In this document: piece after piece, positions 1-31,963 of the stretch
How positions within the stretch are numbered: position 1 is the first letter of the stretch
Layout: every line of letters starts with the position of its first letter
Sequence record: OR062946.1
Length of the DNA: 64,000 nucleotides
Origin: Escherichia phage 310Ecol104PP
Strand: one strand, 5' to 3'
Notes under the pieces: generated by a model
Told to the model about the DNA's origin: nothing
What the model saw: the letters and a program-made list of their open reading frames with translations, nothing else
Databases searched by the model: none
Position numbers and translations under genes: made by a program

Positions 1-126
1 ATATCGCATTTCAGCATTGAACTCGACTGAACCATCTGCATGCATCATGAATGAATGCGTGACGACATCACAATCCCAGCTTTTCATACCCCATTTATTA
101 AGCTGGCGTTTATTTAAACGAGCCAT
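1..126 (-). CDS. hypothetical protein, 5' fragment (gene continues beyond window start)
   Basis: ATG at 126..124 overlaps stop of upstream gene (TAATG); N-term MARLNKRQLNKWGMKSWDCDVVTHSF. Confidence 0.4.
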   Translation of the reverse strand, partial: MARLNKRQLNKWGMKSWDCDVVTHSFMMHADGSVEFNAEMRY

Positions 127-644
127 TAATAACCTCGGTCTTGACGAGCGAAGTTTTCAGCATTTTTCAGATAATAAAGTTTAAAGATTTCTTCAGCTGA
201 CATTCCAAGAGCAATGAATTTATTCATGAAAAAGTGAAATTGATCAATCAGTTCAAATTTAATTTCAAGTTGATCTTCAGGAGATAAGTCTTGAATTTTC
301 TTGGATTGCATTTCAGAATAACGTTTCTTCCAAGGTTTCCATACGGCAGAAGCTTCTTTTTCACCATTACTCATACCACCAAGAGAAGTATATAGCTCGC
401 GAGTTTCATCTGCGATATAATCGTCTTGGTTTCGCAACCAAGCAAGAACTTCTCCTGCAGTTTCAAGTGAATCGGGATGACGATTTGTTTCTGGTTTATC
501 ATTAGCCAAACGAATCTGTAAATGCCGCTGCATATCAAGCATAACCTGCAATGGGTCAATACTGTGCATAATATACTCAGCATATGCACGATTTGCTTTA
601 TCAACACCTTCGATCAAATGAGCACATTCATTAAAGTGAGCCAT
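126..644 (-). CDS. 56: dCTP pyrophosphatase (dCTPase), T4 gp56-like
   Basis: ORF 126..737; probable start ATG at 644 (MAHFNECAHLIEG) after AAAGGA; about 172 aa; directly downstream of primase as in T4. Confidence 0.8.
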   Translation of the reverse strand: MAHFNECAHLIEGVDKANRAYAEYIMHSIDPLQVMLDMQRHLQIRLANDKPETNRHPDSLETAGEVLAWLRNQDDYIADETRELYTSLGGMSNGEKEASAVWKPWKKRYSEMQSKKIQDLSPEDQLEIKFELIDQFHFFMNKFIALGMSAEEIFKLYYLKNAENFARQDRGY

Positions 645-912
645 TATTTTTCCTTTCAATTCATGGGTTAGTAGATTAATTATACAATAAATATATAAAG
701 CAATAAGGAGGACATATGGTACAAAAATTAATGGCACTTGTTAATGCCATAAAAGGTAATAAGAAACGTATAGCTTTTACTATTTCTGCTATGGTAGGAA
801 TTTTACTCTGGAACTTTATTTTATCACCTGTTGCAATTGCACATGGTATTAATATTCCAGTAGTTACTCTTGATACATTCGTAGATTTAGCATTTGCTTT
901 AGTTGGGTTAAT

Positions 913-1941
913 TTAAATCTTAGCATATTTAGATAGCCGCATTTTAGCCATCAACCCCTGGGCAATATTATTTTTCATATATTCCATAATTTGTTCAGGG
1001 GTTGCACCTTCCTTTCTAATCATATCATTAACATCTTTTGATTTCCAGGGAGATTTATCCCAAAACATAACCCTTTCTCCTGCATCAACTAATTTAGTCA
1101 TTCGCTTAATAGTGTCAGGATGACGAGGTTCATTATCTAAAACCCACACTCGTCTATCTTTAAATGGAACAACTTCTAGGTCTAATTGACCACCCGTAAT
1201 AGCTATACCATTTTCAATAAAAAGTGAATCTATAGGTCCTTCTAGAACATATACATCACCATCTTTAACTCGTTCGACTCCATAGATTTTTGTTGCTTCA
1301 GGATAAGCTTTGATAGTGATATATTTTTGGGGAGCATCTTTCTTTAATGCACGTCCTTGAAAAGACTCAGCTTTTCCATTAGCATTATAAATTGGAATAA
1401 CAAGACGAGGCTCAGGTATTTCCTTTTTATATGTTCCCGGTGCTATGCTATTAACTAATTTAGGCCATTCAGTTGTAAACCAAAGATATTTCCATTTATC
1501 CTTTGGAATACAACGAGCTTTTACATATTTTATAATTGGATGGTCTTCCGCCAGTTTATCTAATCTAACACATGACGGAAGAGATTTAATTATTTTCTTC
1601 TCAGGTTGTTTAGGAAGTTCTTTAGGTTTTTCTACTGGACGACTTTTACCTTTTTCTTTTCTTATTTCAAAGATATACTCACGATATAAATCAGGTTCAA
1701 ACTCCTTTAAATATATTCCGATTGGTGCATGATAGTTACAGTTATAACAATGAATATTTCCTTCATTATTATCACCATAATACCATCCACGAGCTTTATT
1801 CTGGTCGGTTTTTGAATCTCCACAAACAGGGCATCTAAACCGCAATTTAAAAGTTGAACTATTATTTACTTGTGTGAATTTAGGTAAATGAGCCAATGCA
1901 CGATATGCAAACTCATTATCAATCCAAGGTATTGATGACAT
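913..1941 (-). CDS. 61: DNA primase gp61
   Basis: 342 aa; MSSIPWIDNEFAYRALAHL, zinc-ribbon CPVCGDSKTDQNKARGWYY...CYNCNYH; matches recalled T4 gp61. Confidence 0.95.
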   Translation of the reverse strand: MSSIPWIDNEFAYRALAHLPKFTQVNNSSTFKLRFRCPVCGDSKTDQNKARGWYYGDNNEGNIHCYNCNYHAPIGIYLKEFEPDLYREYIFEIRKEKGKSRPVEKPKELPKQPEKKIIKSLPSCVRLDKLAEDHPIIKYVKARCIPKDKWKYLWFTTEWPKLVNSIAPGTYKKEIPEPRLVIPIYNANGKAESFQGRALKKDAPQKYITIKAYPEATKIYGVERVKDGDVYVLEGPIDSLFIENGIAITGGQLDLEVVPFKDRRVWVLDNEPRHPDTIKRMTKLVDAGERVMFWDKSPWKSKDVNDMIRKEGATPEQIMEYMKNNIAQGLMAKMRLSKYAKI

Positions 1942-3948: not shown

Positions 3949-5375
3949 TAAAATTTTAATTCATTCGCCAAAGCATCTAACTGGGCTCGAGTGGATTCAT
4001 TTCTTTGATAGCGATTCTGTTCAGCCTGAATCTGTTGTGAACCTGCTACTTCACTTACTTCAGTTGGAGTAGAATCTTGTTCAATTTCTACCCATTTTTG
4101 ATTTCCTTTTTGAACGCCCATCAAAAACTTATTCCATTTATTCTTATCGCCATATCGTGATTTGATTTGCTTAATGAGTTGTTGTTCAGCAGCTGCTAGC
4201 TCCTCGGTTTCAATGACCGCAAGCATAAAATCAGCTGTTGCTGGAAGACCAGCAGATTCTGCAATATCGCTCATGTTAACATCAGAAGAATCCCAAGCTT
4301 GTTTGCCGACCTGTGCTGCAGTCCAAAGAACAGTTTCGGTTTCAACAGCCAGAGCACGCAATTCCTCTGCAATAGCTTTAACAGTTGTGTAACTATTTTC
4401 TGAATAAACTCTAATGCGGCAAGATTTACAAATACCTAGATAGTCGACAATAATGATTGTTGGAACAAAATTCTTTTTGAGCTTCAATTCATTCAAGAGA
4501 GACCTGAATGTATTAGCATCTGCTCCACCAGTAGGATACTGTTTAACGATTAAACGTCCAAGAGTAGATTTCTCACGCCATTTTTCCATTTTTCCTTTAT
4601 ACTCAGCGTAAGAAATATGCCCATCATCAATATCATCAAGAGAAACATCAAGCATATTAGCATCAATACGCTTAGCACAGACTTCTTCTGCCATTTCCAT
4701 GGAAATGTAAAGAACATTATGTCCGAGCTGCAAATAATCTGCTGCCAATGAACACAATCCTAATGACTTACCAACGTTAACACCAGCCATTAAAACGTTC
4801 AGTGTTCCAGTCTCAGCTCCGCCTTTAGTAATTTTGTTTAGAATTTTAAGTTTAAATGGAACCTTACGAGCTTTATTCATATAAGATAGCCAACGTGCTT
4901 CGTAGTCATCCATCCAATCATGACCAACGTAGCTATCAAATGAAATTGATAATGCTTGGCGCATGATGTCAGGAATAGCACCAACATCCGGCATTTTCTT
5001 ATTTCGTTTTTCCGGAGGAAGCTCAGCATTAGTTTGAATTTCGATTATTTTAGACGTAGCATTAAACATCGCCCTTTGCTGAACATATTTTTCTGTTTCT
5101 TTTACTAACCAGCTGTGGTCTTCTGGAGAATCAGCCAGTTTTGAAATAAGTGTTTTTACACCAGAATATTCTGTTTCAGTAAATGAACTATTTTCTAATG
5201 CAACATTTAACGCATTAATAGATGGAACGCTATGATACTCATTAACATGAGATTTAATTAATTTGAATGTATTTTTAGCTGGACCACTTTCAAAATATTC
5301 TGAATCCATATATGGCCAAACTTTTGAAAAATAAGCTTGATCAAATATGAGATGAGAAAGAATAATTTCTACCAC
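3948..5375 (-). CDS. 41: replicative DNA helicase gp41
   Basis: 475 aa; Walker A GVNVGKS; matches recalled T4 gp41. Confidence 0.95.
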   Translation of the reverse strand: MVEIILSHLIFDQAYFSKVWPYMDSEYFESGPAKNTFKLIKSHVNEYHSVPSINALNVALENSSFTETEYSGVKTLISKLADSPEDHSWLVKETEKYVQQRAMFNATSKIIEIQTNAELPPEKRNKKMPDVGAIPDIMRQALSISFDSYVGHDWMDDYEARWLSYMNKARKVPFKLKILNKITKGGAETGTLNVLMAGVNVGKSLGLCSLAADYLQLGHNVLYISMEMAEEVCAKRIDANMLDVSLDDIDDGHISYAEYKGKMEKWREKSTLGRLIVKQYPTGGADANTFRSLLNELKLKKNFVPTIIIVDYLGICKSCRIRVYSENSYTTVKAIAEELRALAVETETVLWTAAQVGKQAWDSSDVNMSDIAESAGLPATADFMLAVIETEELAAAEQQLIKQIKSRYGDKNKWNKFLMGVQKGNQKWVEIEQDSTPTEVSEVAGSQQIQAEQNRYQRNESTRAQLDALANELKF

Positions 5376-5384
5376 ACTTACTCC

Positions 5385-5741
5385 TTAAAAGAATTTAAAT
5401 TTTTTCTTTGACCTTTTATTAAATGCATCTTGCAGTTGCATTGTAATACATTTTTCTACATGAGGAGCTAACTCAGCTTTTCTTTCTTGGTCAAGAACAG
5501 CAAAGTCCATTACGACTTTTCCATCAACCCAATCTAATTTTGTCACATACACAATGTGTGTAGAACCATCTTCTAGTTTAATGACAATCTCCTGGATAAC
5601 ATTTTCCATAGCGGATTTAATTATCTTAAGAGACTCATTAAAAAGACGTTCTTTTCTTTCTTTTTCCCCCTCCGAAGAGGGGGATTCATCGATAATTTCT
5701 AAATCTAAATCATCTTTATTCATTAAATTCTTCCATATCAC
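5385..5741 (-). CDS. 40: gp40-like protein (head vertex assembly chaperone position)
   Basis: 118 aa, between 41 and uvsX as in T4; positional. Confidence 0.65.
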   Translation of the reverse strand: MIWKNLMNKDDLDLEIIDESPSSEGEKERKERLFNESLKIIKSAMENVIQEIVIKLEDGSTHIVYVTKLDWVDGKVVMDFAVLDQERKAELAPHVEKCITMQLQDAFNKRSKKKFKFF

Positions 5742-6897
5742 TTAACTGTTCGAGGTCAGTTTCTAAATCAGCAGCTGATTTACTTTTACTTTCTGGAGAT
5801 TTAAATTTTTCAACCTTTGAGTTAATCAATTCATCAACTTCAGCTTCAACAATTTCATTACTATCAATAGCACCTAACTGATAAGCACGTTTAATAGCAT
5901 CTCGGAATGGTTGATGCTTAAATAAAGGACCCCAGAATGTAGTGCAGTTAGTATCTTTTGCACGCCAAGATTTTTCTTCGCGAATCATCTCGCCGGTTTC
6001 TTCGTCAAGAAATTCACGAGCATACCAACCATTCTTAGGTTTTACTACAAATCCTAATTCTAGAGCCATATCTAACAATCCAGAATAAGGATCGATGCCA
6101 CCGTCAAATTTAACATCAATAAAGAATTTACTTTTTTCTTTAACGGTACGAGATTTTTCTACATTTAGAACAAATTGATACCCCTGAAGATCAGAACCAT
6201 CTTTAATCTGACGCTTACCGATAATGAATACAGTATCAGCCGAATACATTACGCCTGTACCACCTGTCATCACGGTTTTACTAAACATTTCAATTGTTTC
6301 AATTGTATGGTTAACCGCAACGCACGGAATATTTTTAATGCTAAAATAAGGAGTAACAATACGGAATAATGACTTCAGTGATTTAGCACGAGTCATATCT
6401 GCCACAGATTTTTCATTCAAGGCATCTTCCGTTTCTTTCTTGGAAGCCATATTACCGATTGAGTCGATGAATACAATAACCTTTTCACCACGCTCAATAG
6501 CTTCAAGCTGGTTCACCATATCAATTTTCAGCTGTTCAACTGACTGGATTGGTGTATGAATTACTCGTTCCGGGTCAACTCCCATGGATCGCAAATAAGC
6601 TGGAGTAATACCAAATTCGCTATCATAGAATAGACAAACCGCGTCAGGATATTTGTTCAAATACGCCGCAACCATAGTCAAAGACATATTTGATTTAAAG
6701 TGTTTAGAAGGCCCTGCGAAAATAGTTAAACCAGACTGCATACCACCATCAATCGCACCAGAAATAGCAATATTAAGCATTGGAATTTTTGTACGAATTA
6801 CATCCTTTTCATTAAAGAATTTAGATGTAGTCAGTTCAGCAGTCATTTTAGAAGTGGAAGCTTTAATCAAACGGGATTTTAAATCTGCAATAGACAT
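5716..6897 (-). CDS. uvsX: UvsX RecA-like recombinase
   Basis: 393 aa; MSIADLKSRLIKASTSK..., RecA fold; matches recalled T4 UvsX. Confidence 0.95.
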   Translation of the reverse strand: MSIADLKSRLIKASTSKMTAELTTSKFFNEKDVIRTKIPMLNIAISGAIDGGMQSGLTIFAGPSKHFKSNMSLTMVAAYLNKYPDAVCLFYDSEFGITPAYLRSMGVDPERVIHTPIQSVEQLKIDMVNQLEAIERGEKVIVFIDSIGNMASKKETEDALNEKSVADMTRAKSLKSLFRIVTPYFSIKNIPCVAVNHTIETIEMFSKTVMTGGTGVMYSADTVFIIGKRQIKDGSDLQGYQFVLNVEKSRTVKEKSKFFIDVKFDGGIDPYSGLLDMALELGFVVKPKNGWYAREFLDEETGEMIREEKSWRAKDTNCTTFWGPLFKHQPFRDAIKRAYQLGAIDSNEIVEAEVDELINSKVEKFKSPESKSKSAADLETDLEQLSDMEEFNE

Positions 6898-6974
6898 TCA
6901 TTTTTTCCATAGGCATCATTATATTTTCCTCACTGGTTAAAGATAGAGTAATTATAACACAATAAATTTAGGCA

Positions 6975-7823
6975 TTAATCAACTGCTATTGGATGAATAG
7001 CATTAAACTTATGAAATGCTTCTGATTTTTCTTTACGTGAAACGCACATGCGAAGAACCTTTAATGGTTCGTCTTCTTCACCCAACGATTTTCGTTTTTC
7101 AATATTAGAAGTTTTCCAACGAGCTTGCTCTGGAAACTCTCTATTAATCTGCTCAAGCGCTCTATTATGTTTAGAATTACTACGAATTGAACTGCACCCG
7201 CCAGGAGCTTGTGCTTTTCCAGATACAACTAGATATTTGAACAAGGCCAAATGCGGATAACCTTGATTAATTAAATTGAGAAATGCATACATATCTTCGC
7301 ATAAATCAATTTTTCCATACCCAATTTGTTCTGTCGTAAGTTTTCCGAGGTCATACCATGTATTCGTGAATCCATATGAATTTTCACGATAATTACCCCA
7401 AGATGAAGTAATTTTAAAAATAGGTAGACGAGCATGGCCATGATAATACCCGCAATCCATGGCATCCTCAACATATTGAATCAATTCATAGAACTGTTCA
7501 CGAGTCAATTGATTGACTTTATCTACGCAACGACGATCATCTCTTTTTCGCATTGAACTCATACGAATAGTAGTATCATCGTCAATCATCCAGATTCGTT
7601 GACCTGCATACATATCGGTAATTGCTTTACGAGTACCGGCAATTCCGTTTACATCATCAGGAATAGTTATAATTTTAGCTCTAGACCCATAGGCATCATA
7701 ATAAGCTTTTTCTTCATGTTCACGCACTACAATATGGGGTTCATAATCAGTCGGAAACATATCAAGGGCAGAAACTGCCCCTACACGTTGATAGCTCGGA
7801 ATTACGAATTGAATCATTTCCAC
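6975..7823 (-). CDS. glycosyltransferase at the beta-gt locus (not T4 beta-gt; possibly beta-alpha-glucosyl-HMC transferase type)
   Basis: 282 aa; FVIPSYQR and IWMIDDD (DXD-like) motifs; does not match recalled T4 beta-gt (MKIAIINMGNN...). Confidence 0.6.
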   Translation of the reverse strand: MEMIQFVIPSYQRVGAVSALDMFPTDYEPHIVVREHEEKAYYDAYGSRAKIITIPDDVNGIAGTRKAITDMYAGQRIWMIDDDTTIRMSSMRKRDDRRCVDKVNQLTREQFYELIQYVEDAMDCGYYHGHARLPIFKITSSWGNYRENSYGFTNTWYDLGKLTTEQIGYGKIDLCEDMYAFLNLINQGYPHLALFKYLVVSGKAQAPGGCSSIRSNSKHNRALEQINREFPEQARWKTSNIEKRKSLGEEDEPLKVLRMCVSRKEKSEAFHKFNAIHPIAVD

Positions 7824-8554
7824 TCACCGTTATAATCTTTTTTCACAATATGAGTTTCGCCAGTATTCCACCAATGATCAACCAAGTAAAAATGACGAGA
7901 ATATACATGAAGACTTCCAACATTCCATATAATAGAGCCTGCTTTATACTGACGAGTTGAATCGCCTGCATTCAAATCAGATACTAATTTATCTAATACG
8001 TATTTTTGCCATGCATAATCATTACGGAATCCGAAGACCACGTCATTTGAGCGCATGCTTACTACTGCATTGACTTTCTTATCACGAATCAGGTACTGTA
8101 CCGTATTAGTACACATGAAATCTGACATGCCATCTTTATTGTAGTCAAATTGCATGGATGGACGAGTATAAATCATGATACCACGTCGAGAATCAGGATT
8201 TTGACCAAGTTCAGCTAAACACATATCATACTGGGCATAGTTATCTTCTGACCAAATAGCCCAACCATAATTCGAGTTAATTTCGCCTTTAGAAGATGCT
8301 ACCTGCTGCCAAATCTTTGGTGTTTCACCTGGAATATCTTTAACAAACAAGCTCTTAGATTTATACCATTCAAGTTCACGCTGAATGTATTCATCATTAA
8401 GAGCGCCAAAAATAAACGGTTCATCTGCTACAAATGATGCGCCAATAATTTCAATAGTTTTAACACCAGTTTTATCAACTACGAAATCTTTTTCTTTTAA
8501 TGCAAGCCCCAAATGAAGACGGATTTCTTCAACTGTCATAGAGTCACTAATCAT
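7814..8554 (-). CDS. 42: dCMP hydroxymethylase gp42
   Basis: 246 aa; matches recalled T4 gp42. Confidence 0.95.
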   Translation of the reverse strand: MISDSMTVEEIRLHLGLALKEKDFVVDKTGVKTIEIIGASFVADEPFIFGALNDEYIQRELEWYKSKSLFVKDIPGETPKIWQQVASSKGEINSNYGWAIWSEDNYAQYDMCLAELGQNPDSRRGIMIYTRPSMQFDYNKDGMSDFMCTNTVQYLIRDKKVNAVVSMRSNDVVFGFRNDYAWQKYVLDKLVSDLNAGDSTRQYKAGSIIWNVGSLHVYSRHFYLVDHWWNTGETHIVKKDYNGEWK

Positions 8555-8561
8555 TTAAACC

Positions 8562-8711
8562 TCAATTGATACATTCATATTTAACTTGTAACAGTAATAA
8601 ACCCCACCCTATGATAAGAGTTGGAATCATAGCAGGAACTGTTACGCTATAGTATATACTTATTATAACCATTAAGATTAAAAGCAACACTGCTATAATT
8701 TTGCTTTTCAT
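8562..8711 (-). CDS. small hydrophobic protein, 49 aa
   Basis: own translation MKSKIIAVLLLILMVIISIYYSVTVPAMIPTLIIGWGLLLLQVKYECIN; ATGA overlap with imm stop. Confidence 0.4.
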   Translation of the reverse strand: MKSKIIAVLLLILMVIISIYYSVTVPAMIPTLIIGWGLLLLQVKYECIN

Positions 8712-8959
8712 TCCTTCTCTCTGATGATAATTACCTGATTTGGCTGTACAGACTTTTTAGTTTCACCCGCAATTGACCAAATAAATGTAATAAACCAACC
8801 AATAATTGACCAGTTAAACAGTAAAGATGTGAAAAAGATTCCTACTGTCGATTTTGACCCACGCATCAAGGCGATGAACCATGGAAGCATGTATATAATA
8901 ATAGCCAACACGCCTGAAACTAAAACCATAAAAATTGAACCTGCTACTAAAGTTTCCAT
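8708..8959 (-). CDS. imm: Imm superinfection immunity membrane protein
   Basis: 83 aa, two hydrophobic helices; position between 43 and 42. Confidence 0.75.
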   Translation of the reverse strand: METLVAGSIFMVLVSGVLAIIIYMLPWFIALMRGSKSTVGIFFTSLLFNWSIIGWFITFIWSIAGETKKSVQPNQVIIIREKE

Positions 8960-8966
8960 CTTTTCC

Positions 8967-9347
8967 TCACTTAGTCAAATTTTTTACGCATGAATTATAA
9001 GAATTCACTACATACTCCATCGGAGCATTTTTACCAGTACGCCATTGGTAATTATTAGCCCAATTAGCCCAAATTTCGGCGCAGTAGTTTTCAATTTTTT
9101 CTTCGCGTGTAATTACATCCGAATTACGATATGCTTGAGCAGATTCATCTGGACGAATAGCTTCGTCAAAATTCTCCTGCATTTGTTCTACTGTCTGTTT
9201 TGGAGCTTCTTTATAACACTTGACATTAGGATTATAAAATTTGCTTGAACAGTTTACAATTTTTCCTACATCAGACTGATTTACTACCGGTCCTTGAGCT
9301 ACACAACCAGTAAGACCTAATGCAATAACCAAAATAGCGATTTTCAT
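8967..9347 (-). CDS. predicted lipoprotein, 126 aa
   Basis: N-term MKIAILVIALGLTGC with lipobox LTGC; Cys-containing mature part. Confidence 0.6.
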   Translation of the reverse strand: MKIAILVIALGLTGCVAQGPVVNQSDVGKIVNCSSKFYNPNVKCYKEAPKQTVEQMQENFDEAIRPDESAQAYRNSDVITREEKIENYCAEIWANWANNYQWRTGKNAPMEYVVNSYNSCVKNLTK

Positions 9348-9359
9348 AATAATTTCCTC

Positions 9360-9611
9360 TTAAAACTTAACAAATAGCTTTAAAGCATCTTCAGTTTTAA
9401 TTCCTTTTCTTACACCCATAACAGAAATTGGCTGTGACTGAAATTTTCCTTTACCATTATAAATTTCTAATCCAGTCACCATTCCATTTTGTTCTATAAT
9501 ACCGTAAGTGTTACCTTCATTTTCAAATTCTTTAACTTTAAAAAGTTTATTCGCTTTTTCTACGTTAACAACTTTTAAATTTTGAATAAAATTAGTTTGA
9601 ATATTTTTCAT
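9360..9611 (-). CDS. hypothetical protein, 83 aa
   Basis: ORF track; GGAGG SD and early promoter immediately upstream. Confidence 0.55.
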   Translation of the reverse strand: MKNIQTNFIQNLKVVNVEKANKLFKVKEFENEGNTYGIIEQNGMVTGLEIYNGKGKFQSQPISVMGVRKGIKTEDALKLFVKF

Positions 9612-9639
9612 TTTGTGTTCCTCCGTAGTTGATAGTTGT

Positions 9640-9669
9640 ATAGTACCATGGAAGAACAGAGATGTAAAC
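9640..9669 (-). promoter_or_regulatory. T4-type early promoter
   Basis: GTTTAC, 18 nt, TACTAT; conserved GTGG-TACTAT-ACAACTATCAACTAC-GGAGG module. Confidence 0.6.
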
Positions 9670-9750
9670 AGTTTTGTGAAAAAATTTTTAATGAATTCAA
9701 AGGGTCCAGAATCATCTGTTTTTCATAAGTATAGATTTATATTACTTGTA

Positions 9751-9773
9751 TGAAAAGGGGACCCGGAGGTCCC
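9751..9773 (-). terminator. intrinsic terminator after gene 43
   Basis: stem GGGACC/GGTCCC with 4-nt loop, then U-run on minus strand. Confidence 0.6.
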
Positions 9774-9786
9774 TAGATTTATTCTA

Positions 9787-12483
9787 TCAGCCAAACAGGA
9801 AGTCTAACGAAGCTTTTTCTTCATAGTCCATACCAGCCGATTCACACATACCAGCAAGCGGTTTAACAAACGATTTTTGGAACAAAGTTGAGTAGTCAAT
9901 CCAAGATAGTACATCAGAACGAATTTCTTTTGGAAGTTCTGTACCCGACGGCCAAGCAATGCACTTATCACCAAATGGATTTCCTTCACGTAATGGAAGA
10001 ACCATTACTTTATTTCCATCCAAAATTGGAGCTACACCCAGACCACTAACAGCTCGACGATAAGTTAGCACACCACGAATATGGAATGGGCATTTAAATC
10101 CTGGCCAACCTTTATCATCATATTTCGCTATATCGTTCGCAGTTTTTACTTCAGCAATAACTTTATAGTCAAGTTGACGATATTCTTTCTCGAAGTTTTT
10201 GTAATATTCTTGGACAGACTCTTCACCTTCCTGAAGAATACGACGAATACTTTCTTCGAGAGCTTCTTGCACTGCTTTTGGTGTTGAACTCTGCTGAGTT
10301 TCCATACCCATGATTTTTAGATGCGGTTCAGCAAATCGTTTATCTTCCATATCATAAACGTTCAGAGCATAACGCTTTTTCGCTTTCCAAAATCCGCCAA
10401 CGCCCTTTGAACCAAGTGGAGGGCAAGAAATAGCTTCACGGTCCATATGCATCAGATGCTCGCGGTTATTCATATAATCACATAACTCACGATATGCAAC
10501 ATCAATCATAGGTTCCATCTTTTTCTTACCGAACTGATTCATGAATTCAACTAAATCGTTCTGCTCTTTGAATCGGTCAAGACCAACTTTTTCAATAACT
10601 TTATCTACACAAACATATACCGAATCAGTATCACCTGCCGCGATGAAATCTTCACCATTAGTTCCACACACTTTATTCAGATATTCATTAATTTTACGAG
10701 CAATCCACTGAATACCGACTTGGCCAAAAATTGTGATAGCAGTAGCATTTCGCAAATCATAGTAACGGAAATGAATATTACCAAGAGCACCATAAAGACT
10801 GTTAATAAGAATTTTACGGTTCAGCTGATTTGTATTAGCAAGTGTAGCTGCTTTTTCACATTCCTCAATCAGACTATTGAGAACAGATTCAGTATAATTC
10901 GATAGCTCATTTAAGAAATCATCACTGAACTTAACATATCGTTCAACTTCTGGTTTAGTTGAACAAGACCCTGCGCCTTTCATAATAATCTTTTTAATAG
11001 CTTCGGCATTCATTTCTTCAGCGAACATTTTCTTTTTCCAGTCTTTACGCTGGAAAAATACTTTAGCGATTTCCTTTGGAATGATACCTTCTTGATGCTT
11101 ATCATACATCCATCCATTCGGAGAACAAGAATATTCATCACTCGGTTTAGGAGCTGTTCCTGCAATATATTCATGAATTGGATGAACTTTAAACTGCCCA
11201 CGAATAGTCTCAGGACTAATGTTAACCTGACGAATAATGCTCGGATACAGAGACGTCAAGTCAAAACTCATAATATATCGACGAGCAATTGGTTTAGGTT
11301 CAAATACAAATGCACCCGGAAAACTTTGTTTAACGTGCGAACCTTGTTGAGGAATAACCTTGTGTTCACCTTTCAATGAGTTAAAAATGATAGCATCCCA
11401 AGTTTTAATAGGACTCATTACACCAGAAAAAGGCATTTTAGCATAATAAGACATACTTAAAACTAGATCAATAAACCCGCGAATTTTATCAATTGCTTGA
11501 ACTGATTCTACGTCAATGATGTTATAACTAATGTATCGTTGATGATTAGTCTCACGAAGTTTATTAATAGGACCGTCGTATGGTAATTTACCTTTTTTGG
11601 TTTCATGTTGAGCAACTGATTCCAAAGAGAATGACGGCAAATTAGTAAAAGCAAATTTCTTGTACAAATCTAAATAATCAAGAATAGATACGCCATCAAT
11701 AGAATAAATTTCTTTGCTACCGTACATATTTTGAATTAGTTTAGATTTTACCCGACCGATTGGAGAGAAACGTTTCATACTGCGTTCGCCCAGAATCATT
11801 TTAACACGATTCATGATATATGGAACGTCAAATCCCTCAATATTCCAACCAGTAAAAATAGCAGGTCGTTTCTGTTCCCAGAGATTAATATATTCCATGA
11901 GCATATCACGCTCATTATCGAATGGCATATAAATTACTCGGTCAAGAATTTCTTGAGGAACTTCATCACCACCTTCACAGTCAAGCTTAGCAGCTAACTT
12001 TGCATCCCATTTTGATACTGAACCGTACATTGAATTCAAAAGATCGAAAACATAAAAACGATCATCAATTGAATCGTAATGAGTGATAGCATCAATTTCA
12101 TATTCTGCTTTCATTGGGTCAGGAAATTTATCACCGGTAACCTCAATGTCACAGTTAGCTACACGAACAAATTTTCGGTCATAAACAATTTCTGAACCAT
12201 ATGTATCACTGATATAAGCGAGTTTAAAGTCGTTCATACCGAGAGCTTCGAGACCGATGTCTTCCATTCGCTTCATCCAATCTCGAGCATCTTTCATTGA
12301 TGGAAATTTTTGAGGAGCACAATTTTTACCATAGATGTCTTTGTATTTTGACTCTTCCTTACAATGTCTAAACATAGTTGGAAGATATTCTACTTCACGG
12401 GTACGTTCCTTTCCGTTTTCATCAATATAACGTTCAACAATGTTATTTCCGACTGTTTCGATAGAGATATAAAATTCTTTCAT
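9787..12483 (-). CDS. 43: DNA polymerase gp43
   Basis: 898 aa; family B polymerase; matches recalled T4 gp43 N-terminus and length. Confidence 0.97.
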   Translation of the reverse strand: MKEFYISIETVGNNIVERYIDENGKERTREVEYLPTMFRHCKEESKYKDIYGKNCAPQKFPSMKDARDWMKRMEDIGLEALGMNDFKLAYISDTYGSEIVYDRKFVRVANCDIEVTGDKFPDPMKAEYEIDAITHYDSIDDRFYVFDLLNSMYGSVSKWDAKLAAKLDCEGGDEVPQEILDRVIYMPFDNERDMLMEYINLWEQKRPAIFTGWNIEGFDVPYIMNRVKMILGERSMKRFSPIGRVKSKLIQNMYGSKEIYSIDGVSILDYLDLYKKFAFTNLPSFSLESVAQHETKKGKLPYDGPINKLRETNHQRYISYNIIDVESVQAIDKIRGFIDLVLSMSYYAKMPFSGVMSPIKTWDAIIFNSLKGEHKVIPQQGSHVKQSFPGAFVFEPKPIARRYIMSFDLTSLYPSIIRQVNISPETIRGQFKVHPIHEYIAGTAPKPSDEYSCSPNGWMYDKHQEGIIPKEIAKVFFQRKDWKKKMFAEEMNAEAIKKIIMKGAGSCSTKPEVERYVKFSDDFLNELSNYTESVLNSLIEECEKAATLANTNQLNRKILINSLYGALGNIHFRYYDLRNATAITIFGQVGIQWIARKINEYLNKVCGTNGEDFIAAGDTDSVYVCVDKVIEKVGLDRFKEQNDLVEFMNQFGKKKMEPMIDVAYRELCDYMNNREHLMHMDREAISCPPLGSKGVGGFWKAKKRYALNVYDMEDKRFAEPHLKIMGMETQQSSTPKAVQEALEESIRRILQEGEESVQEYYKNFEKEYRQLDYKVIAEVKTANDIAKYDDKGWPGFKCPFHIRGVLTYRRAVSGLGVAPILDGNKVMVLPLREGNPFGDKCIAWPSGTELPKEIRSDVLSWIDYSTLFQKSFVKPLAGMCESAGMDYEEKASLDFLFG

Positions 12484-19899: not shown

Positions 19900-19929
19900 T
19901 CCGTATAAAGCTAAAGGGCCGAAGCCCTT
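19900..19929 (-). terminator. intrinsic terminator after alpha-gt
   Basis: AAGGGC-CGAA-GCCCTT hairpin. Confidence 0.5.
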
Positions 19930-21131
19930 TATTTTGTAATAATGTCAAACTGTTCTTTAAAGCAGAAGCTTGAATCTTGATGCTGATACAAAAATTCATA
20001 CGCTTTTTCTCGCTCACGGTCATAAAGAGCTCGGTCAGATGACAGTTCTTTAATACGTTCGAGTGTCGATTCCATGTCATTTTCATCAAACCAAATGATA
20101 CCGCTATCATGCGAGGTCAAAGGAGTATTATCAACACGGAATTTCAAATTATCACCCGTTGATTTCCAGAAAACAGGAATTGTACCACAAGCACCTAATT
20201 CAAGATGAGTATATTCGAGTGAGCGTTGTAAGTATTTCTGGTTAAGTTTACTCAACTGATATCCAAAGCCAGATTTACTCATTCGTTCAAGCATTTCACT
20301 ATTAATATAACAATCTAGGATTTGTGCCGGTTGATTCGGCGCGAGATTCATTTTATCAATCTCACGATTACCGTAATATTCATACGGAATACCTTTTTCC
20401 TTAATTGCAATAAAAGCAGGGGAACGTTCAAGACCTTCCATTACAGTGGATTTACCAGCAGGTTTTAAGAATTTTTCATGAAAATCAAACATCTGATAAA
20501 AACCTTTCCATGTAGTCGTACGACCAATCCAACGGTTGATATTCATGTTAATTTCAGAAACATCTTTCCAATAAGTTGACCGAACCTTCGCAATATCCAT
20601 AGGAGGCTGAAAGTTGTATACGGTCGGTGCTTCTTCAATATCATCAAACAGAGAAACAGTTTCTGGATACCACTCTTTCATCAGAACTTTATTAAAATCG
20701 CCATTATCAGAATGGCTAAAAATAACATCAGCTCGACGAACAGTTTCTTCTAATCCCGAATTTCGACGCAAAGAAAGAACAGAATGATCATGCTGATAAA
20801 CTACAACACGAATAGAAGGTTTAATATTATCTAAAAGTTTTTTATAGTTATTAATCGTAGCTTCTTGAACGGAAGTAGCAGGAACAGAATTAATAATTAG
20901 AATATCACAATCATTAATCAGTTTAAGTGCTTTATCGTATTCTTTAGCTAAAATAACTGGAATTGAAAATGATTTGTGGTCATGAGAACTTGTACGAGTA
21001 AATGATTTATCTTTAGCATAAACCAGAGTTACTTCATGACCATTTTTAATGAACCAATCACGTTGCTCAAGAGAAAATTTAGTTACGCCGCAACCTTCAA
21101 GACCTCGAGCCATAAAAATGCATACTTTCAT
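19929..21131 (-). CDS. a-gt: DNA alpha-glucosyltransferase
   Basis: 400 aa MKVCIFMARGLEGCGVTKFSLEQRDWFIKNGHEV; matches recalled T4 alpha-gt. Confidence 0.95.
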   Translation of the reverse strand: MKVCIFMARGLEGCGVTKFSLEQRDWFIKNGHEVTLVYAKDKSFTRTSSHDHKSFSIPVILAKEYDKALKLINDCDILIINSVPATSVQEATINNYKKLLDNIKPSIRVVVYQHDHSVLSLRRNSGLEETVRRADVIFSHSDNGDFNKVLMKEWYPETVSLFDDIEEAPTVYNFQPPMDIAKVRSTYWKDVSEINMNINRWIGRTTTWKGFYQMFDFHEKFLKPAGKSTVMEGLERSPAFIAIKEKGIPYEYYGNREIDKMNLAPNQPAQILDCYINSEMLERMSKSGFGYQLSKLNQKYLQRSLEYTHLELGACGTIPVFWKSTGDNLKFRVDNTPLTSHDSGIIWFDENDMESTLERIKELSSDRALYDREREKAYEFLYQHQDSSFCFKEQFDIITK

Positions 21132-21375
21132 TTAATATCCTCATTGTTTTGGTTTATTTTACAAAAAAATTTATAAAGCAATATAGGAGCAAAAGCTCCT
21201 ATCCGCATAATACACCATACAGAGGCTCATTAGAGCTTCTAAATTTTATACGTTTATATGTTATAGTTCCTTCCGCTTTAGCTTTATCATGAGACTCTTT
21301 AAAACGTCTCATCATTTCTACTTTAGAGGAACGAATTTTATTATAATCTATTTCAGAAGTCTGGGTGTTCATCTT

Positions 21376-21582
21376 TCACAGTTGCCACCATTTTTTGACT
21401 TGATAAGAATCAACCCACACTTTCATATTAGGGTCTGCTCTTACAATAGGAGGATTAACTTCTTTAATTGAACTATCATGGTATTCCTTTTCAGAAATTT
21501 TCACGCAAAGATGACCATTCAAAGATTCGGTAAATCCTGCATTAATTTTAAGACGCTTGAATTTTACGTGTGTAAGCATCAA
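21376..21582 (-). CDS. hypothetical small protein
   Basis: 68 aa ORF, overlaps next ORF; start uncertain. Confidence 0.35.
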   Translation of the reverse strand: MMLTHVKFKRLKINAGFTESLNGHLCVKISEKEYHDSSIKEVNPPIVRADPNMKVWVDSYQVKKWWQL

Positions 21583-21865
21583 TCATATCCTCAATCTGCG
21601 ATCTAGTAGTCTTCCAAAGAATACTAATGAGTTCATCGTTATATGGCTGTTTTAGAATATCCCGACTTTTCTTGATAGCATATTCGTATTGAGCAAAATT
21701 ATTGTTTTCAGCTGCAATCTGAGCGTGTTTATAAAGACGGTTCAGTTCGCGCTTATTTTTAGACAATAACTTATTTGCTTTTCTTTCTGCTTCAAGACGG
21801 TTCTTTTCTTCAATAGAAGAAATAAGCTTTTCCACTTCATCATTAATTTCGGGTTTATCAGTCAT
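21548..21865 (-). CDS. hypothetical protein, 105 aa
   Basis: ORF track; coiled-coil-like. Confidence 0.5.
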   Translation of the reverse strand: MTDKPEINDEVEKLISSIEEKNRLEAERKANKLLSKNKRELNRLYKHAQIAAENNNFAQYEYAIKKSRDILKQPYNDELISILWKTTRSQIEDMIDAYTRKIQAS

Positions 21866-21866
21866 A

Positions 21867-22085
21867 TTATTTCTCTAATATAAAATAAAAATCATCATCT
21901 GTTAAATGATACCGATAGTTTAATTCTACGCCATTAGATTTAAAAGCGGTATCATACGGATTTTCTGGATCAATATCAATGTCAAGAGCTAAAACTTCCC
22001 TGAGATACATTTTAAGTAAATAGGGAATAGCTTCAACTTCAGGTATTTCTTCCAAGAATCCGGAGAGGTTAATCGTTAGCCTCAT
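21867..22085 (-). CDS. hypothetical protein, 72 aa
   Basis: ORF track. Confidence 0.5.
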
Positions 22086-22626
22086 ATAAAAAATCCAAAC
22101 TAGGAGAATCGTCTACAACACTTTTCTTTTCAGCCCCTGGTGTTCTATAGGTTGATTCTTCGTAATGCGTCATTTTATCGTAGATGTCTTGAATAAAAGT
22201 TTCATCTACTAACGCAACCATATCGTCGTCACAACTGTCATAGACATTGTGAACGAAGTAACTGTATTTCTTTGCAACTTCCTTACGTTCTTTTTTAATA
22301 CGTTGGACAAATGCATTAAAACAAGCTTGAGTTATATATGCATGTGGGTTTTTATATTTCGTTTCATCAAAATTATGAAGCCCCTTAATAGAAGCTTCTA
22401 TACCATCTGCAATCATTTCTTGTTTCCATGATTGGGTGTATCCTGAAAAGTTGAAACGTTTAGATAAGCCTTCTGCAATAAGCATAATGGCTAATCCGAT
22501 AGTATCATTCTGACGAACTACTTTATTTGGGTCTTTATTATTTGCTAATTCTGTTTTCCAATCAATAATAGCTTGTAAAAGCTCTTTATTGTTTACGTAA
22601 TTATATTTAGGCTTAGTTTCTGACAT
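22069..22626 (-). CDS. 55: late sigma factor gp55
   Basis: start ATG 22626 ([23 protein letters not shown]), 185 aa; matches recalled T4 gp55. Confidence 0.9.
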
Positions 22627-22708
22627 TTTCACCTCTTAGCTCAATTCATAGATCTATTATATCATAATATTTGAAGATCTATCTTAAAGCATAGAGGATG
22701 AATCAATT

Positions 22709-22924
22709 TCACGCATTCATTAAGTTAGCCGCTTCAAGAGCTGCATCTAGTGAATCAAATTGATCGACATATTCAATCAATTCGCCATAATTAGCGTATA
22801 ACCACCATTGGCTAAATTCATACTCAAGGATGAATCCATTTCCTTCAATTTGAGTTAAACCAATGCCGTTTGTATTTACTTCATATCCGGCAAGACGCAA
22901 ATCATTAATAAGAGCTTCGTTCAT
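22709..22924 (-). CDS. hypothetical protein, 71 aa
   Basis: ORF track. Confidence 0.5.
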   Translation of the reverse strand: MNEALINDLRLAGYEVNTNGIGLTQIEGNGFILEYEFSQWWLYANYGELIEYVDQFDSLDAALEAANLMNA

Positions 22925-22926
22925 AA

Positions 22927-23253
22927 TTATGCCTTAGTAATTTTCAGGTCAGCAAATTTTTTCTTGCGTTGATTTTTCATACGACGAATAGTTTTATCGG
23001 AAATTTCATGTTTTTGATAAGCTTTAGATTCTACACCAAAAGCTTTAACATCAAATTCTGACAAGATATATTGAACCAACAATTCACGGACAGTATTGCG
23101 CCCAATTTTCTGATCATTCTGTTTCATCGTCTGATGAAGCTCTTTTTCCCATTTATCCAAAATTTGAGGAGTTACAATATCGCCTTTTTCTAGCAAAGAA
23201 ACTACTTTATCATATGCGTAAGAATTGATGGCGTTTTTAATTTGAATAGTCAT
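22927..23253 (-). CDS. hypothetical protein, 108 aa
   Basis: ORF track; basic C-terminus. Confidence 0.5.
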   Translation of the reverse strand: MTIQIKNAINSYAYDKVVSLLEKGDIVTPQILDKWEKELHQTMKQNDQKIGRNTVRELLVQYILSEFDVKAFGVESKAYQKHEISDKTIRRMKNQRKKKFADLKITKA

Positions 23254-23283
23254 ACATTATCCTCAATTGCGTTAAAGTTTTAT

Positions 23284-23306
23284 TATCCAAAAGGGCCGAA
23301 GCCCTT
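23284..23306 (-). terminator. intrinsic terminator
   Basis: AAGGGC-CGAA-GCCCTT hairpin plus U-run. Confidence 0.55.
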
Positions 23307-23505
23307 AGCTAAACTGTTTGGCGCCCTTCCAGCCTTCGTACATCATTGCAGCTGATATTAATATTGCTCCTGAGCAACTTGAATATTTGTGATTCCAAAA
23401 CCAGTTCAGAAAAACTTCGTCATCAATACCTTGGGCTATCATATTTTCAAAGAACTGACGACGAGCTTCGGCAATTCGTTGTGATAATTTAGATTCAGGA
23501 TTCAT
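23305..23505 (-). CDS. hypothetical protein, 66 aa
   Basis: ORF track. Confidence 0.45.
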   Translation of the reverse strand: MNPESKLSQRIAEARRQFFENMIAQGIDDEVFLNWFWNHKYSSCSGAILISAAMMYEGWKGAKQFS

Positions 23506-23721
23506 TTAAATTTTCCAGTTACCGTTTTCATCAATAAATTTAATCCAGTCATTTACTGACCACTTAGTTGTATCACCTTTTGGAGTAACATTTAAAGTGT
23601 ATAACCCCTGCTTAAAAAGCATTCGTTTGATATTCATAATTTCCTCAGCTGTAACGATAACACTCGTTTGATTTACGTTTAGCAACTCGTTGAGAAGTAT
23701 TATAATCAAAATCATCGTCAA
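23506..23721 (-). CDS. hypothetical small protein
   Basis: 71 aa ORF overlapping upstream gene; true start probably internal. Confidence 0.35.
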   Translation of the reverse strand: MTMILIIILLNELLNVNQTSVIVTAEEIMNIKRMLFKQGLYTLNVTPKGDTTKWSVNDWIKFIDENGNWKI

Positions 23722-23938
23722 TGTAAACTGATTTTTTCAACTTTCTTACTTCACCACGTAATTGGCGATTTAGCTCATCTTTAACTTCTGAATCAATACC
23801 TTTCATTCTACGCCATTTATCTGAGCGAAAAATGTTTTCAACCATATCTTTATGACTTACACCATCAGGAGCTTTACGCTTTCCGAAATAGTCATAATCA
23901 CGTACTTTTAAATCTTTACGACGATACGTTTTACCCAT
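23645..23938 (-). CDS. hypothetical basic protein, 97 aa
   Basis: ORF track. Confidence 0.5.
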   Translation of the reverse strand: MGKTYRRKDLKVRDYDYFGKRKAPDGVSHKDMVENIFRSDKWRRMKGIDSEVKDELNRQLRGEVRKLKKSVYIDDDFDYNTSQRVAKRKSNECYRYS

Positions 23939-23943
23939 GGAGT

Positions 23944-24108
23944 TTAATTTTCCTTAGCAACTGAACTAAATACAGCACGATCACAAATCATATGTTTGTT
24001 CCATTTAAGCACAGTATAATGAACATCTAGATCATCTACTGCTGTAACAATAACAATATGTCCGTTAACTCGATAATACTGATCCCTTTTAATCTCTTTA
24101 TCAACCAT
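23944..24108 (-). CDS. hypothetical small protein, 54 aa
   Basis: own translation MVDKEIKRDQYYRVNGHIVIVTAVDDLDVHYTVLKWNKHMICDRAVFSSVAKEN; early promoter upstream. Confidence 0.45.
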   Translation of the reverse strand: MVDKEIKRDQYYRVNGHIVIVTAVDDLDVHYTVLKWNKHMICDRAVFSSVAKEN

Positions 24109-24138
24109 ATCAAATCCTCAAAGGCAATTCATATGTTA

Positions 24139-24168
24139 ATAATACCACAATTTGAACTTCTTGTAAAC
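24139..24168 (-). promoter_or_regulatory. T4-type early promoter
   Basis: GTTTAC, 18 nt, TATTAT. Confidence 0.55.
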
Positions 24169-24240
24169 AACTTTGTGAAAATTATTTTAGGGAATGATAA
24201 GAAGGGAACGATAACTTAGAATGGTAATATACAGAATGTG

Positions 24241-24262
24241 AGAAAGAAAGGCCCAGAGGGCC
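24241..24262 (-). terminator. intrinsic terminator after nrdH
   Basis: GGCCC-AGA-GGGCC hairpin plus U-run. Confidence 0.5.
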
Positions 24263-24266
24263 CGTC

Positions 24267-24575
24267 TTAGTCTTCTATGATATCTCTATCATATCCAAGT
24301 GAAATGAGAGTTTCTTTGAAGTGTTTAATGTTCTTTTGTCTAGAATCATTGATGAAAATGACTGGATAACGAATGTTAAGAGATGTGAATCCAGCTCGTT
24401 TAGCAAGAGATACAATCAGTGGACGATCATACTCAATCTTACCATTATTTGTAAGAACTTTATAGAAAGTAAAAGGAGCATTGAGCTCCTTTAGAAGTTT
24501 TGTAACTGATTGACATCCAGGACAACGACCTACTTCATCTGGAATTCCATAGACTTCAATCTTATTTTGTTTCAC
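24267..24575 (-). CDS. nrdH: NrdH glutaredoxin-like protein
   Basis: 102 aa; CPGC redox motif. Confidence 0.8.
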   Translation of the reverse strand: MKQNKIEVYGIPDEVGRCPGCQSVTKLLKELNAPFTFYKVLTNNGKIEYDRPLIVSLAKRAGFTSLNIRYPVIFINDSRQKNIKHFKETLISLGYDRDIIED

Positions 24576-24577
24576 AA

Positions 24578-24790
24578 CTATTCCTTACTAAGAGCAGCGT
24601 TCAGCTTGTTAGTAATTTTATCCAAACGCTCATTGAACTCACTAGAAGATAAGCCCTTTTCTGGAGAAATCAAACTAATCACGAAAAATATAGCAATAAA
24701 AGGAATAAGGAAAATAGCTCCAACTGCCATAAACAGAAAGAATGTTACAGTTGTAAGAAAATCAGCTAAACCTTTACGAAATTTATACAT
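24578..24790 (-). CDS. small membrane protein, 70 aa
   Basis: ORF track; hydrophobic core. Confidence 0.45.
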   Translation of the reverse strand: MYKFRKGLADFLTTVTFFLFMAVGAIFLIPFIAIFFVISLISPEKGLSSSEFNERLDKITNKLNAALSKE

Positions 24791-24905
24791 ATTTTACCCT
24801 TAATTGATTAACCAAGCATTGATAAGCACTAAACTATACTGCGAATAAAATTCTGGACCAAAATGAAAAATCATATCATTTATAGTATCCATAATGTAAT
24901 TCAAT

Positions 24906-25376
24906 TTAATCATGTTTCCACACCCCATCGGTATTTGACCAAAGCCGCTGATTATCTGATCCTCGCCACAGCTTTTTAGTCGGAAGATTTTTCTCATACT
25001 TCCCATCAATAATAACATCAACATATTTAAGCATTTCTAGTTGTTTAATATCTTCAAACTTATATCCTGTCCACAACCAAATGCTTTTATTGGGATAAAG
25101 ATTTTTTACTGTTTGAACAATGCAATGAATAACATCTCGGTTATCAGGATAGAGAGGGTCTCCTCCAGTTATAGTTAATCCTTCTATATAATCATTATTC
25201 AAACATTCAATTAATTGTTCTAGTGTTTCACCAGTGAATGGAATACCATTTCTAGCATTCCATGTTGATTTATTATAACACCCTTCACACTTATGCAAAC
25301 AACCTGTAACGAAAAGAACGACCCTGCAACCAGGGCCATTCACAAAATCGCAAGGATAAAATCTATCATAATTCAT
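24906..25376 (-). CDS. nrdG: anaerobic ribonucleotide reductase activating protein NrdG
   Basis: 156 aa; radical-SAM Cys cluster CLHKCEGCYN. Confidence 0.9.
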   Translation of the reverse strand: MNYDRFYPCDFVNGPGCRVVLFVTGCLHKCEGCYNKSTWNARNGIPFTGETLEQLIECLNNDYIEGLTITGGDPLYPDNRDVIHCIVQTVKNLYPNKSIWLWTGYKFEDIKQLEMLKYVDVIIDGKYEKNLPTKKLWRGSDNQRLWSNTDGVWKHD

Positions 25377-27660: not shown

Positions 27661-27701
27661 AATAAACCCTTACCTTAAATAGATAAGGGTATTTATTATT
27701 T

Positions 27702-28187: not shown

Positions 28188-28310
28188 GTCCCATCTCCAT
28201 ATCAATTAAGTCATTTATCGTTGGTTCATTATATACTGTTTCTTCATCAGTGTAAACCGGTTCTTCCGGATCTGGCTCTACAGTTTCCCATCTAGCCGCC
28301 CACCAAGGTT

Positions 28311-28631: not shown

Positions 28632-28641
28632 TTTTCACCAA

Positions 28642-29290: not shown

Positions 29291-29291
29291 A

Positions 29292-29534: not shown

Positions 29535-29536
29535 TT

Positions 29537-30852: not shown

Positions 30853-30904
30853 GTTCTTCTCACTTGGTTAATGATTTATGCTCCGAGCCATCCTTGGCTT
30901 TAAA

Positions 30905-31906: not shown

Positions 31907-31924
31907 ATTAATCTCCTCAGTAGA

Positions 31925-31954: not shown

Positions 31955-31963
31955 CGAAGTAAA

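What the first reader, a model, noticed from the sequence alone, without database searches (positions are those of the whole stretch)
6975..7823. Different glycosyltransferase at the beta-glucosyltransferase locus
The gene between uvsX and 42 encodes a 282-aa protein with a DXD-like motif. It does not match T4 beta-gt as I recall it (351 aa), while alpha-gt elsewhere in the window is T4-like. This is the pattern expected for T2/T6-type phages, which add a second glucose to alpha-glucosyl-HMC instead of beta-glucosylating. The DNA modification pattern sets sensitivity to type IV restriction and CRISPR.
Basis: partly seen in the sequence, partly recalled or inferred. Interest (0 to 1): 0.45.

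Follow-up and report, generated by a model that had tools for sequence, protein, structure and literature searches.

The report
Known T2/T6-type second DNA glucosyltransferase

Summary
The finding is confirmed and is ordinary. An ORF lies at 6975..7823 (- strand) between uvsX and gene 42. The 282 aa is the longest GTG-started reading. The start annotated in relatives is the ATG at 7817, giving 280 aa, with an ATGA overlap on the gene 42 stop codon.

- **Identity.** The protein is 280/280 identical to the glucosyltransferase of phage vB_Eco_Solly. It is 278/280 identical to the T2 protein and 276/280 to the T6 protein.
- **Family.** It passes the Pfam PF20691 (TAGT) threshold and matches PHROG 842 at 2e-89.
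- **Not T4 beta-gt.** It shows no similarity to T4 beta-gt (E = 2.2), and no T4 beta-gt or segA is found anywhere in the window.
- **Partner enzyme.** The alpha-gt at 19929..21131 is 98% identical to T4's.
- **Distribution.** 474 phage records carry this gene, against 29 that carry T4-type beta-gt, so T4 is the exception.
- **Published function.** Deleting the T6 gene removes gentiobiosyl-HMC. Solly DNA was measured as about two thirds alpha-gentiobiosyl-hmC and one third hmC.
- **Mechanism.** The DDD motif is invariant in homologues, and the predicted structure matches only GT-A-type enzymes. This fits an inverting, UDP-glucose-dependent beta-1,6 transfer.

Already known; low interest. One side observation: the T2 records carry a private R11H change at an invariant residue, and the two T6 sequences each carry a different lesion. 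The window copy has none of these.

The parts
6975..7817 (-). beta-alpha-glucosyltransferase gene (ba-gt / ggt / TAGT), 280 aa from the ATG at 7817.
   Evidence: ORF. 280/280 identical to Solly CAJ1578263, 278/280 to T2, 276/280 to T6. Pfam PF20691 scores 38.9 bits against a cut-off of 27.5. PHROG 842 at 2.2e-89.
7575..7583 (-). Codons for D79-D80-D81, the DXD metal and nucleotide-sugar binding motif of a GT-A glycosyltransferase.
   Evidence: The sequence gacgatgat is read directly. The motif is invariant in alignment A1. In the AF2 model it directly follows strand E74-77.
7814..7817 (-). ATGA overlap of the gene 42 stop (TGA) and the ba-gt start (ATG). This arrangement suggests co-transcription and translational coupling with gene 42.
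   Evidence: Sequence and alignment. The same 4-base overlap is annotated in T2, T6, teqhad, Solly and Aplg8.
7814..8554 (-). Gene 42, dCMP hydroxymethylase. It makes the hydroxymethyl-dCMP precursor.
   Evidence: Pfam Thymidylat_synt at 1.1e-15. 95.5% nucleotide identity to the T4 gene 42 region. Annotation in relatives.
19929..21131 (-). alpha-glucosyltransferase (a-gt). It makes the alpha-glucosyl-HMC that serves as the acceptor for ba-gt.
   Evidence: Pfam PF11440 AGT at 4.9e-257. 393/400 identical to T4 alpha-gt.
126..644 (-). Gene 56, dCTPase/dUTPase. It belongs to the same HMC pathway and excludes dCTP from phage DNA.
   Evidence: ORF. It corresponds to the 519-bp gene 56 of Aplg8 at the start of the aligned region. 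The function rests on annotation and established T4 knowledge.
6886..7831 (.). The segment with no nucleotide homology to T4. It is 946 bp here. The corresponding T4 segment is 1941 bp (T4 23556-25496) and carries segA plus beta-gt.
   Evidence: blastn of window 5000-9800 against T4 20000-32000. Homology ends at 6885 and resumes at 7832. T4 annotation.

Best explanation
The gene encodes the T2/T6-type beta-alpha-glucosyltransferase, also called beta-glucosyl-HMC-alpha-glucosyltransferase, ba-gt, ggt or TAGT (Pfam PF20691).

The pathway runs as follows. gp56 and gp42 make all cytosines in phage DNA 5-hydroxymethylcytosine (HMC). After replication, alpha-gt puts an alpha-linked glucose on most HMC residues. 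This enzyme then transfers a second glucose from UDP-glucose, in beta-1,6 linkage, onto that alpha-glucose. The product is alpha-gentiobiosyl-HMC.

The enzyme is a GT-A-fold glycosyltransferase with a DXD motif (DDD 79-81). It is most like inverting GT2 enzymes, which fits an alpha-linked donor giving a beta-linked product.

There is no T4-type beta-gt in the window, so the DNA should carry no beta-glucosyl-HMC. The protein is identical to that of phage Solly and lacks the changes seen in T2. The expected pattern is therefore T6/Solly-like: about two thirds gentiobiosyl-HMC, about one third bare HMC, and little mono-alpha-glucosyl-HMC.

What is shown here: sequence identity, synteny, family membership, a conserved DXD motif, a GT-A-like fold, and the presence of alpha-gt, gene 42 and gene 56.

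What is taken from published work on identical or 99%-identical proteins: the product chemistry.

What is inferred: the inverting metal-dependent mechanism, and the quantitative pattern in this particular phage.
For: - **Identity to characterised genes.** 280/280 to Solly, 278/280 to T2, 276/280 to T6. 474 phage records hold the gene at 90% nucleotide identity or more, and many of them annotate it as beta-glucosyl-HMC-alpha-glucosyltransferase.
- **Family.** Pfam PF20691 is above its gathering score. PHROG 842 matches at 2e-89.
- **Position.** Same site between uvsX and gene 42 as in T2, T6, teqhad, Solly and Aplg8.
- **Partner enzymes.** alpha-gt, gene 42 and gene 56 are present.
- **Motifs.** DDD, the N-terminal IPSY motif and R11 are invariant in homologues.
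- **Fold.** The AF2 model has pTM 0.72, with the N-terminal 80 residues at pLDDT 84-95. All Foldseek PDB matches are GT-A-type glycosyltransferases (WrtF, K4CP, TarP, TarS, DPMS, ABO GTA/GTB) or related nucleotidyltransferases.
Against: - No chemistry was measured for this phage.
- The structural support is moderate: mean pLDDT is 69.9, the best Foldseek E-values are about 4e-4, and TM-scores are 0.2-0.4.
- The fraction of gentiobiosyl-HMC differs widely among phages with near-identical enzymes. It is 5% in T2, 72% in T6, and 1:2:2 in Durham phages EL, BGP and Geo. The quantitative prediction is therefore less secure than the identity of the enzyme.
- No solved structure exists for the family, and there is no NCBIfam model.
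Confidence: 0.94

Rival explanations
1. The gene is present but gives a T2-like outcome. It would be weakly active or poorly expressed, so the DNA is mostly mono-alpha-glucosyl-HMC with only a few percent gentiobiosyl-HMC.
For: T2 carries a protein 99% identical yet has only about 5% gentiobiosyl-HMC. Durham phages EL, BGP and Geo show an intermediate 1:2:2 ratio. The product level is therefore not fixed by presence of the gene alone.
Against: The window protein is identical to Solly's, and Solly DNA is about two thirds gentiobiosyl. The window lacks both T2-specific changes, R11H and P251S, which sit at invariant or nearly invariant positions. Like the Solly group, the window also lacks dam between genes 56 and 61.
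Confidence: 0.08
2. It is a highly diverged orthologue of T4 beta-gt that puts a single beta-glucose directly on HMC.
For: Only the shared genomic position between uvsX and gene 42.
Against: There is no sequence similarity (E = 2.2). The Pfam family differs: PF20691 was the only hit at E up to 1. The model matches the GT-A fold, whereas T4 beta-gt is GT-B (PMC13216743). The nucleotide homology break shows replacement of a cassette, not divergence. Phages with this gene have no beta-glucosyl-HMC.
Confidence: 0.01
3. It is a TAGT with a different donor or acceptor. For example, it might use another sugar, or act on bare HMC or on beta-glucosyl-HMC.
For: TAGT homologues occur with alpha-GT, with beta-GT, or alone. 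Their specificities are largely uncharacterised (PMC13216743).
Against: The protein sequence is identical to that of a phage whose only di-sugar product is alpha-gentiobiosyl-hmC. It is 99% identical to the genetically tested T6 gene.
Confidence: 0.02

Closest known systems
T6 / T2 beta-alpha-glucosyltransferase (ba-gt, ggt; 'beta-glucosyl-HMC-alpha-glucosyltransferase'; YP_010067197, YP_010073690) and the identical protein of phage vB_Eco_Solly (CAJ1578263)
   Same: 99-100% amino-acid identity, the same length from the ATG, the same position between uvsX and gene 42, the same ATGA overlap with gene 42, and the same partner alpha-gt.
   Different: Nothing of substance. Compared with T2 it has R11 and P251, where T2 has H and S. 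Compared with the two T6 sequences it lacks the DDD-to-DD deletion (AP018814/NC_054907) and the codon-10 TAG (MH550421).
Pfam PF20691, TET-associated glycosyltransferase (TAGT) family; GT-A fold, near GT2
   Same: It scores above the gathering threshold over the whole 205-position profile. It has an invariant DXD motif and GT-A-type fold matches.
   Different: Here the enzyme works downstream of a dCMP hydroxymethylase and alpha-gt pathway, not downstream of a TET/JBP dioxygenase. The match to the family profile is modest at 38.9 bits.
T4 beta-glucosyltransferase (b-gt, NP_049658, GT-B fold)
   Same: It occupies the same genomic slot, uses UDP-glucose and forms a beta linkage. It serves the same general purpose of glucosylating HMC DNA.
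   Different: There is no sequence similarity. The fold differs (GT-A against GT-B). The acceptor differs (alpha-glucosyl-HMC against bare HMC). T4 also carries segA next to it.

Membership tests
T2/T6 beta-alpha-glucosyltransferase (PHROG 842) | High full-length sequence identity to the T2 and T6 proteins | tested here: met
   278/280 to T2, 276/280 to T6, PHROG 842 at 2.2e-89.
T2/T6 beta-alpha-glucosyltransferase (PHROG 842) | Located between uvsX and gene 42, in place of T4 segA plus beta-gt | tested here: met
T2/T6 beta-alpha-glucosyltransferase (PHROG 842) | Genome also encodes alpha-gt (which makes the acceptor) and the HMC pathway (genes 42 and 56), and lacks T4-type beta-gt | tested here: met
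   alpha-gt is 98% identical to T4's. Gene 42 and gene 56 are present. tblastn of T4 beta-gt against the window gave E = 8.7. Only the 64-kb window could be searched, not the whole genome.
T2/T6 beta-alpha-glucosyltransferase (PHROG 842) | Product is beta-1,6-glucosyl-alpha-glucosyl-HMC (gentiobiosyl-HMC) in virion DNA | not testable with these tools
   Measured by others for Solly, which has the identical protein (PMC13390438). Shown genetically for T6 by delta-ba-gt (PMC11078745).
Pfam PF20691 TAGT / GT-A glycosyltransferases | Score above the Pfam gathering threshold | tested here: met
   38.9 bits against a cut-off of 27.5, covering profile positions 2-205 of 205.
Pfam PF20691 TAGT / GT-A glycosyltransferases | Conserved DXD motif after a central beta-strand | tested here: met
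   D79, D80 and D81 are invariant in 10 sequences down to 32% identity. The motif follows strand E74-77 in the model.
Pfam PF20691 TAGT / GT-A glycosyltransferases | GT-A (single Rossmann-like domain) fold | tested here: met
T4 beta-glucosyltransferase (GT-B) | Sequence similarity to T4 b-gt or its Pfam family | tested here: not met
   BLASTP E = 2.2. The only Pfam hit at E up to 1 is PF20691.
T4 beta-glucosyltransferase (GT-B) | Two-domain GT-B fold | tested here: not met
   The model matches GT-A enzymes only.

The most novel reading that the evidence does not exclude
The gene itself leaves no room for novelty. The most novel reading that the evidence allows concerns its alleles.

The classical and unexplained difference between T2 (about 5% gentiobiosyl-HMC) and T6 or wild isolates (about 70%) may be caused by the T2-private R11H change, possibly together with P251S. 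R11 is invariant in the family and sits next to the N-terminal IPSY nucleotide-binding motif. On this reading the window carries the fully active wild-type allele, and T2 carries a laboratory or lineage-specific hypomorph.

The two sequenced T6 stocks each carry a different lesion in the same gene. This hints that the gene may be dispensable, or selected against, during laboratory passage.
Probability: 0.3. Interest if true: 0.3.

Novelty: already known. Interest (0 to 1): 0.08.

Why it matters
The sugar pattern on HMC decides which host defences can attack a T-even phage. Published work shows that McrBC and McrA are blocked by glucosylation. GmrSD and BrxU-type enzymes cut glucosylated and gentiobiosylated DNA. 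The glycosylase Brig1 removes alpha-glucosyl-hmC but does not degrade gentiobiosyl-rich T6 DNA in vitro. BapA does not release glucose from gentiobiosyl-hmC (PMC11078745, PMC13216743, PMC13390438, bioRxiv 10.64898/2026.02.25.707755).

For this phage the result gives a useful annotation and a prediction of T6-like DNA. It does not open a new question.

Tried and rejected
- **Diverged T4 beta-gt.** Rejected. BLASTP gave E = 2.2, and tblastn of T4 beta-gt and segA against the whole window found nothing below E = 4.9.
- **Sequence search of solved structures.** No meaningful hit; best E = 1.6, to an unrelated protein.
- **NCBIfam.** No model matches.
- **DD form of the motif as the cause of T6's high activity.** I asked whether the one-residue deletion in the DDD motif of the T6 RefSeq protein might explain the high gentiobiosyl level in T6. 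Rejected. The other T6 record has DDD, and Solly, with DDD, also has a high gentiobiosyl level.
- **Promoter and terminator scan of 6600-8900.** It gave no more sites than shuffled sequence: 14 promoter-like sites against 10.7 expected, and 2 terminator-like sites against 1.2 expected. It was not used as evidence.
- **Homologue search.** The search for homologous proteins returned only 11 proteins. The alignment behind the structure model is therefore shallow, and the model is only moderately confident.
- **Technical failures.** Two literature queries failed on term syntax, as did one in-paper term search. Two scripts failed because a locus file was missing.

Full report
**The observation**

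The window holds an ORF at 6975..7823 on the - strand. It reads 282 aa from a GTG. It lies between uvsX (5716..6897; Pfam T4_UVSX_C and RecA) and gene 42 dCMP hydroxymethylase (7814..8554).

The longest-ORF start is probably not the real one. Two codons downstream, an ATG at 7817 overlaps the gene 42 stop as ATGA. This is the start annotated in T2, T6 (NC_054907), teqhad, Solly and Aplg8, and it gives 280 aa, or 279 aa in the T6 record, which lacks one aspartate.

**What it is**

The DNA matches 474 records in the phage collection at 90% identity or more over its full length. Nearly all of them are Tequatrovirus-type phages of Escherichia, Shigella, Yersinia and Salmonella. Many annotate the gene as beta-glucosyl-HMC-alpha-glucosyltransferase.

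The 280-aa protein compares as follows:
- 280/280 identical to the glucosyltransferase of phage vB_Eco_Solly
- 278/280 identical to the T2 protein
- 276/280 identical to the T6 protein

It passes the Pfam gathering threshold for PF20691, the TET-associated glycosyltransferase family (38.9 bits against 27.5). It matches PHROG 842 at 2.2e-89.

It has no similarity to the 351-aa T4 beta-gt (best E = 2.2). A tblastn of T4 beta-gt and of the neighbouring T4 homing endonuclease SegA against the whole window finds nothing (E of 4.9 or more).

Nucleotide homology to T4 stops at 6885 and resumes at 7832. A 946-bp segment here therefore replaces a 1941-bp T4 segment that carries segA and beta-gt.

The alpha-gt at 19929..21131 is 393/400 identical to T4 alpha-gt. 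Gene 56, the dCTPase, lies at 126..644.

**How common it is**

T4-type beta-gt DNA is found in only 29 records, all T4 or very close relatives. This gene is found in 474. A 2026 survey agrees: only 6 of 753 glucosyltransferase-encoding phage genomes combine alpha-GT with beta-GT, and the usual partner of alpha-GT is a TAGT (PMC13216743). The 'different' gene is therefore the normal one, and T4 is the exception.

**How it works**

*Shown here.* The DDD motif, the N-terminal IPSY motif and R11 are invariant in an alignment of ten homologues down to 32% identity. An AlphaFold2 model built on that shallow alignment has pTM 0.72 and mean pLDDT 69.9. Its N-terminal 80 residues score 84-95, and the DDD motif directly follows strand 74-77.

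*From the literature.*
- Deleting the T6 gene leaves a genome with only alpha-glucosyl-hmC (PMC11078745; bioRxiv 10.64898/2026.02.25.707755).
- HPLC/MS of Solly DNA shows about one third 5-hmdC, about two thirds alpha-5-gentiobiosyl-mdC, a low background of alpha-glucosyl-mdC and no beta-glucosyl form (PMC13390438). Solly's enzyme is identical to the one in this window.

*Inferred.* The enzyme is a metal-dependent, DXD-bearing, inverting transferase. It takes glucose from UDP-alpha-glucose and attaches it in beta-1,6 linkage to the glucose that alpha-gt has already placed on HMC. The ATGA overlap suggests it is translated together with gene 42.

**Quantitative expectation**

The gentiobiosyl fraction varies among phages that carry this gene. 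It is 5% in T2 and 72% in T6. Durham phages EL, BGP and Geo show hmC, glucosyl and gentiobiosyl in a 1:2:2 ratio, and the Solly group shows about two thirds gentiobiosyl.

The window protein equals Solly's. Like the Solly group, the window also has no dam gene between genes 56 and 61. I therefore expect the T6/Solly pattern, with less confidence than for the identity of the enzyme.

**Side observation**

The window copy looks like the intact wild type, while the classical laboratory phages do not.
- All T2 and SV76 records carry R11H (CGT to CAT) and P251S. R11 is invariant and P251 is at least 90% conserved in the alignment.
- A 42-nt probe centred on the T2 allele finds only the eight T2 and SV76 records.
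- A degenerate pattern for the His allele finds nothing in IMG/VR. The Arg pattern finds five contigs.
- The two T6 sequences each have a different lesion. AP018814/NC_054907 (one sequence, held as a GenBank and a RefSeq record) has a 3-nt deletion that turns DDD into DD. MH550421 has a TAG at codon 10, and its CDS is annotated from Met20.

Whether R11H explains the low gentiobiosyl content of T2 is untested. I did not check whether this has been published.

**Verdict**

The gene is an already known, experimentally characterised gene in its usual place. Interest is low.

Noticed in passing
L003:3007-3849 and L010:107-949 (T2), compared with window 6975..7817: All T2 and SV76 records carry R11H (CGT to CAT) and P251S in this enzyme. 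R11 is invariant and P251 is at least 90% conserved among homologues. The T2 allele was found in only 8 records of the phage collection, all T2 or SV76, and in no IMG/VR contig. It might explain why T2 has about 5% gentiobiosyl-HMC while T6 has about 72%. This is untested.
   Followed up: partly
L005:4135-4974 (T6 NC_054907/AP018814) and L009:627-1469 (T6 MH550421): The two T6 genome sequences each carry a different lesion in this gene. One has a 3-nt deletion that turns the DDD motif into DD. The other has a TAG stop at codon 10, and its CDS is annotated from Met20 (261 aa). These could be stock-specific mutations or sequencing errors.
   Followed up: partly
window 645..916: There is no dam methyltransferase gene between gene 56 and gene 61. 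A 66-aa + strand ORF (716..916) sits there instead, as in RB14, RB32 and Aplg8 ('dam.1'). The Durham study links absence of dam with the phage group that has a high gentiobiosyl level.
   Followed up: partly
window 9348..9621: An 83-aa ORF (9360..9611, - strand) lies between imm.1 and DNA polymerase gene 43, in a segment with no counterpart in T4. Relatives such as teqhad, T2 and Aplg8 annotate a hypothetical protein there.
   Followed up: no
window 7763..7783 (- strand): A 9-bp GC-rich hairpin (TAGGGGCAG-TTT-CTGCCCTTG) lies inside codons 12-18 of the glucosyltransferase gene. It is identical in T2 and T6. It was flagged as terminator-like, but the number of such sites does not exceed the shuffled expectation.
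   Followed up: no
window 8562..8711 (- strand): A 49-aa hydrophobic ORF lies between gene 42 and imm. It is annotated as a hypothetical protein in teqhad, Solly and Aplg8. The homologous DNA exists in T4 but is not annotated there.
   Followed up: no
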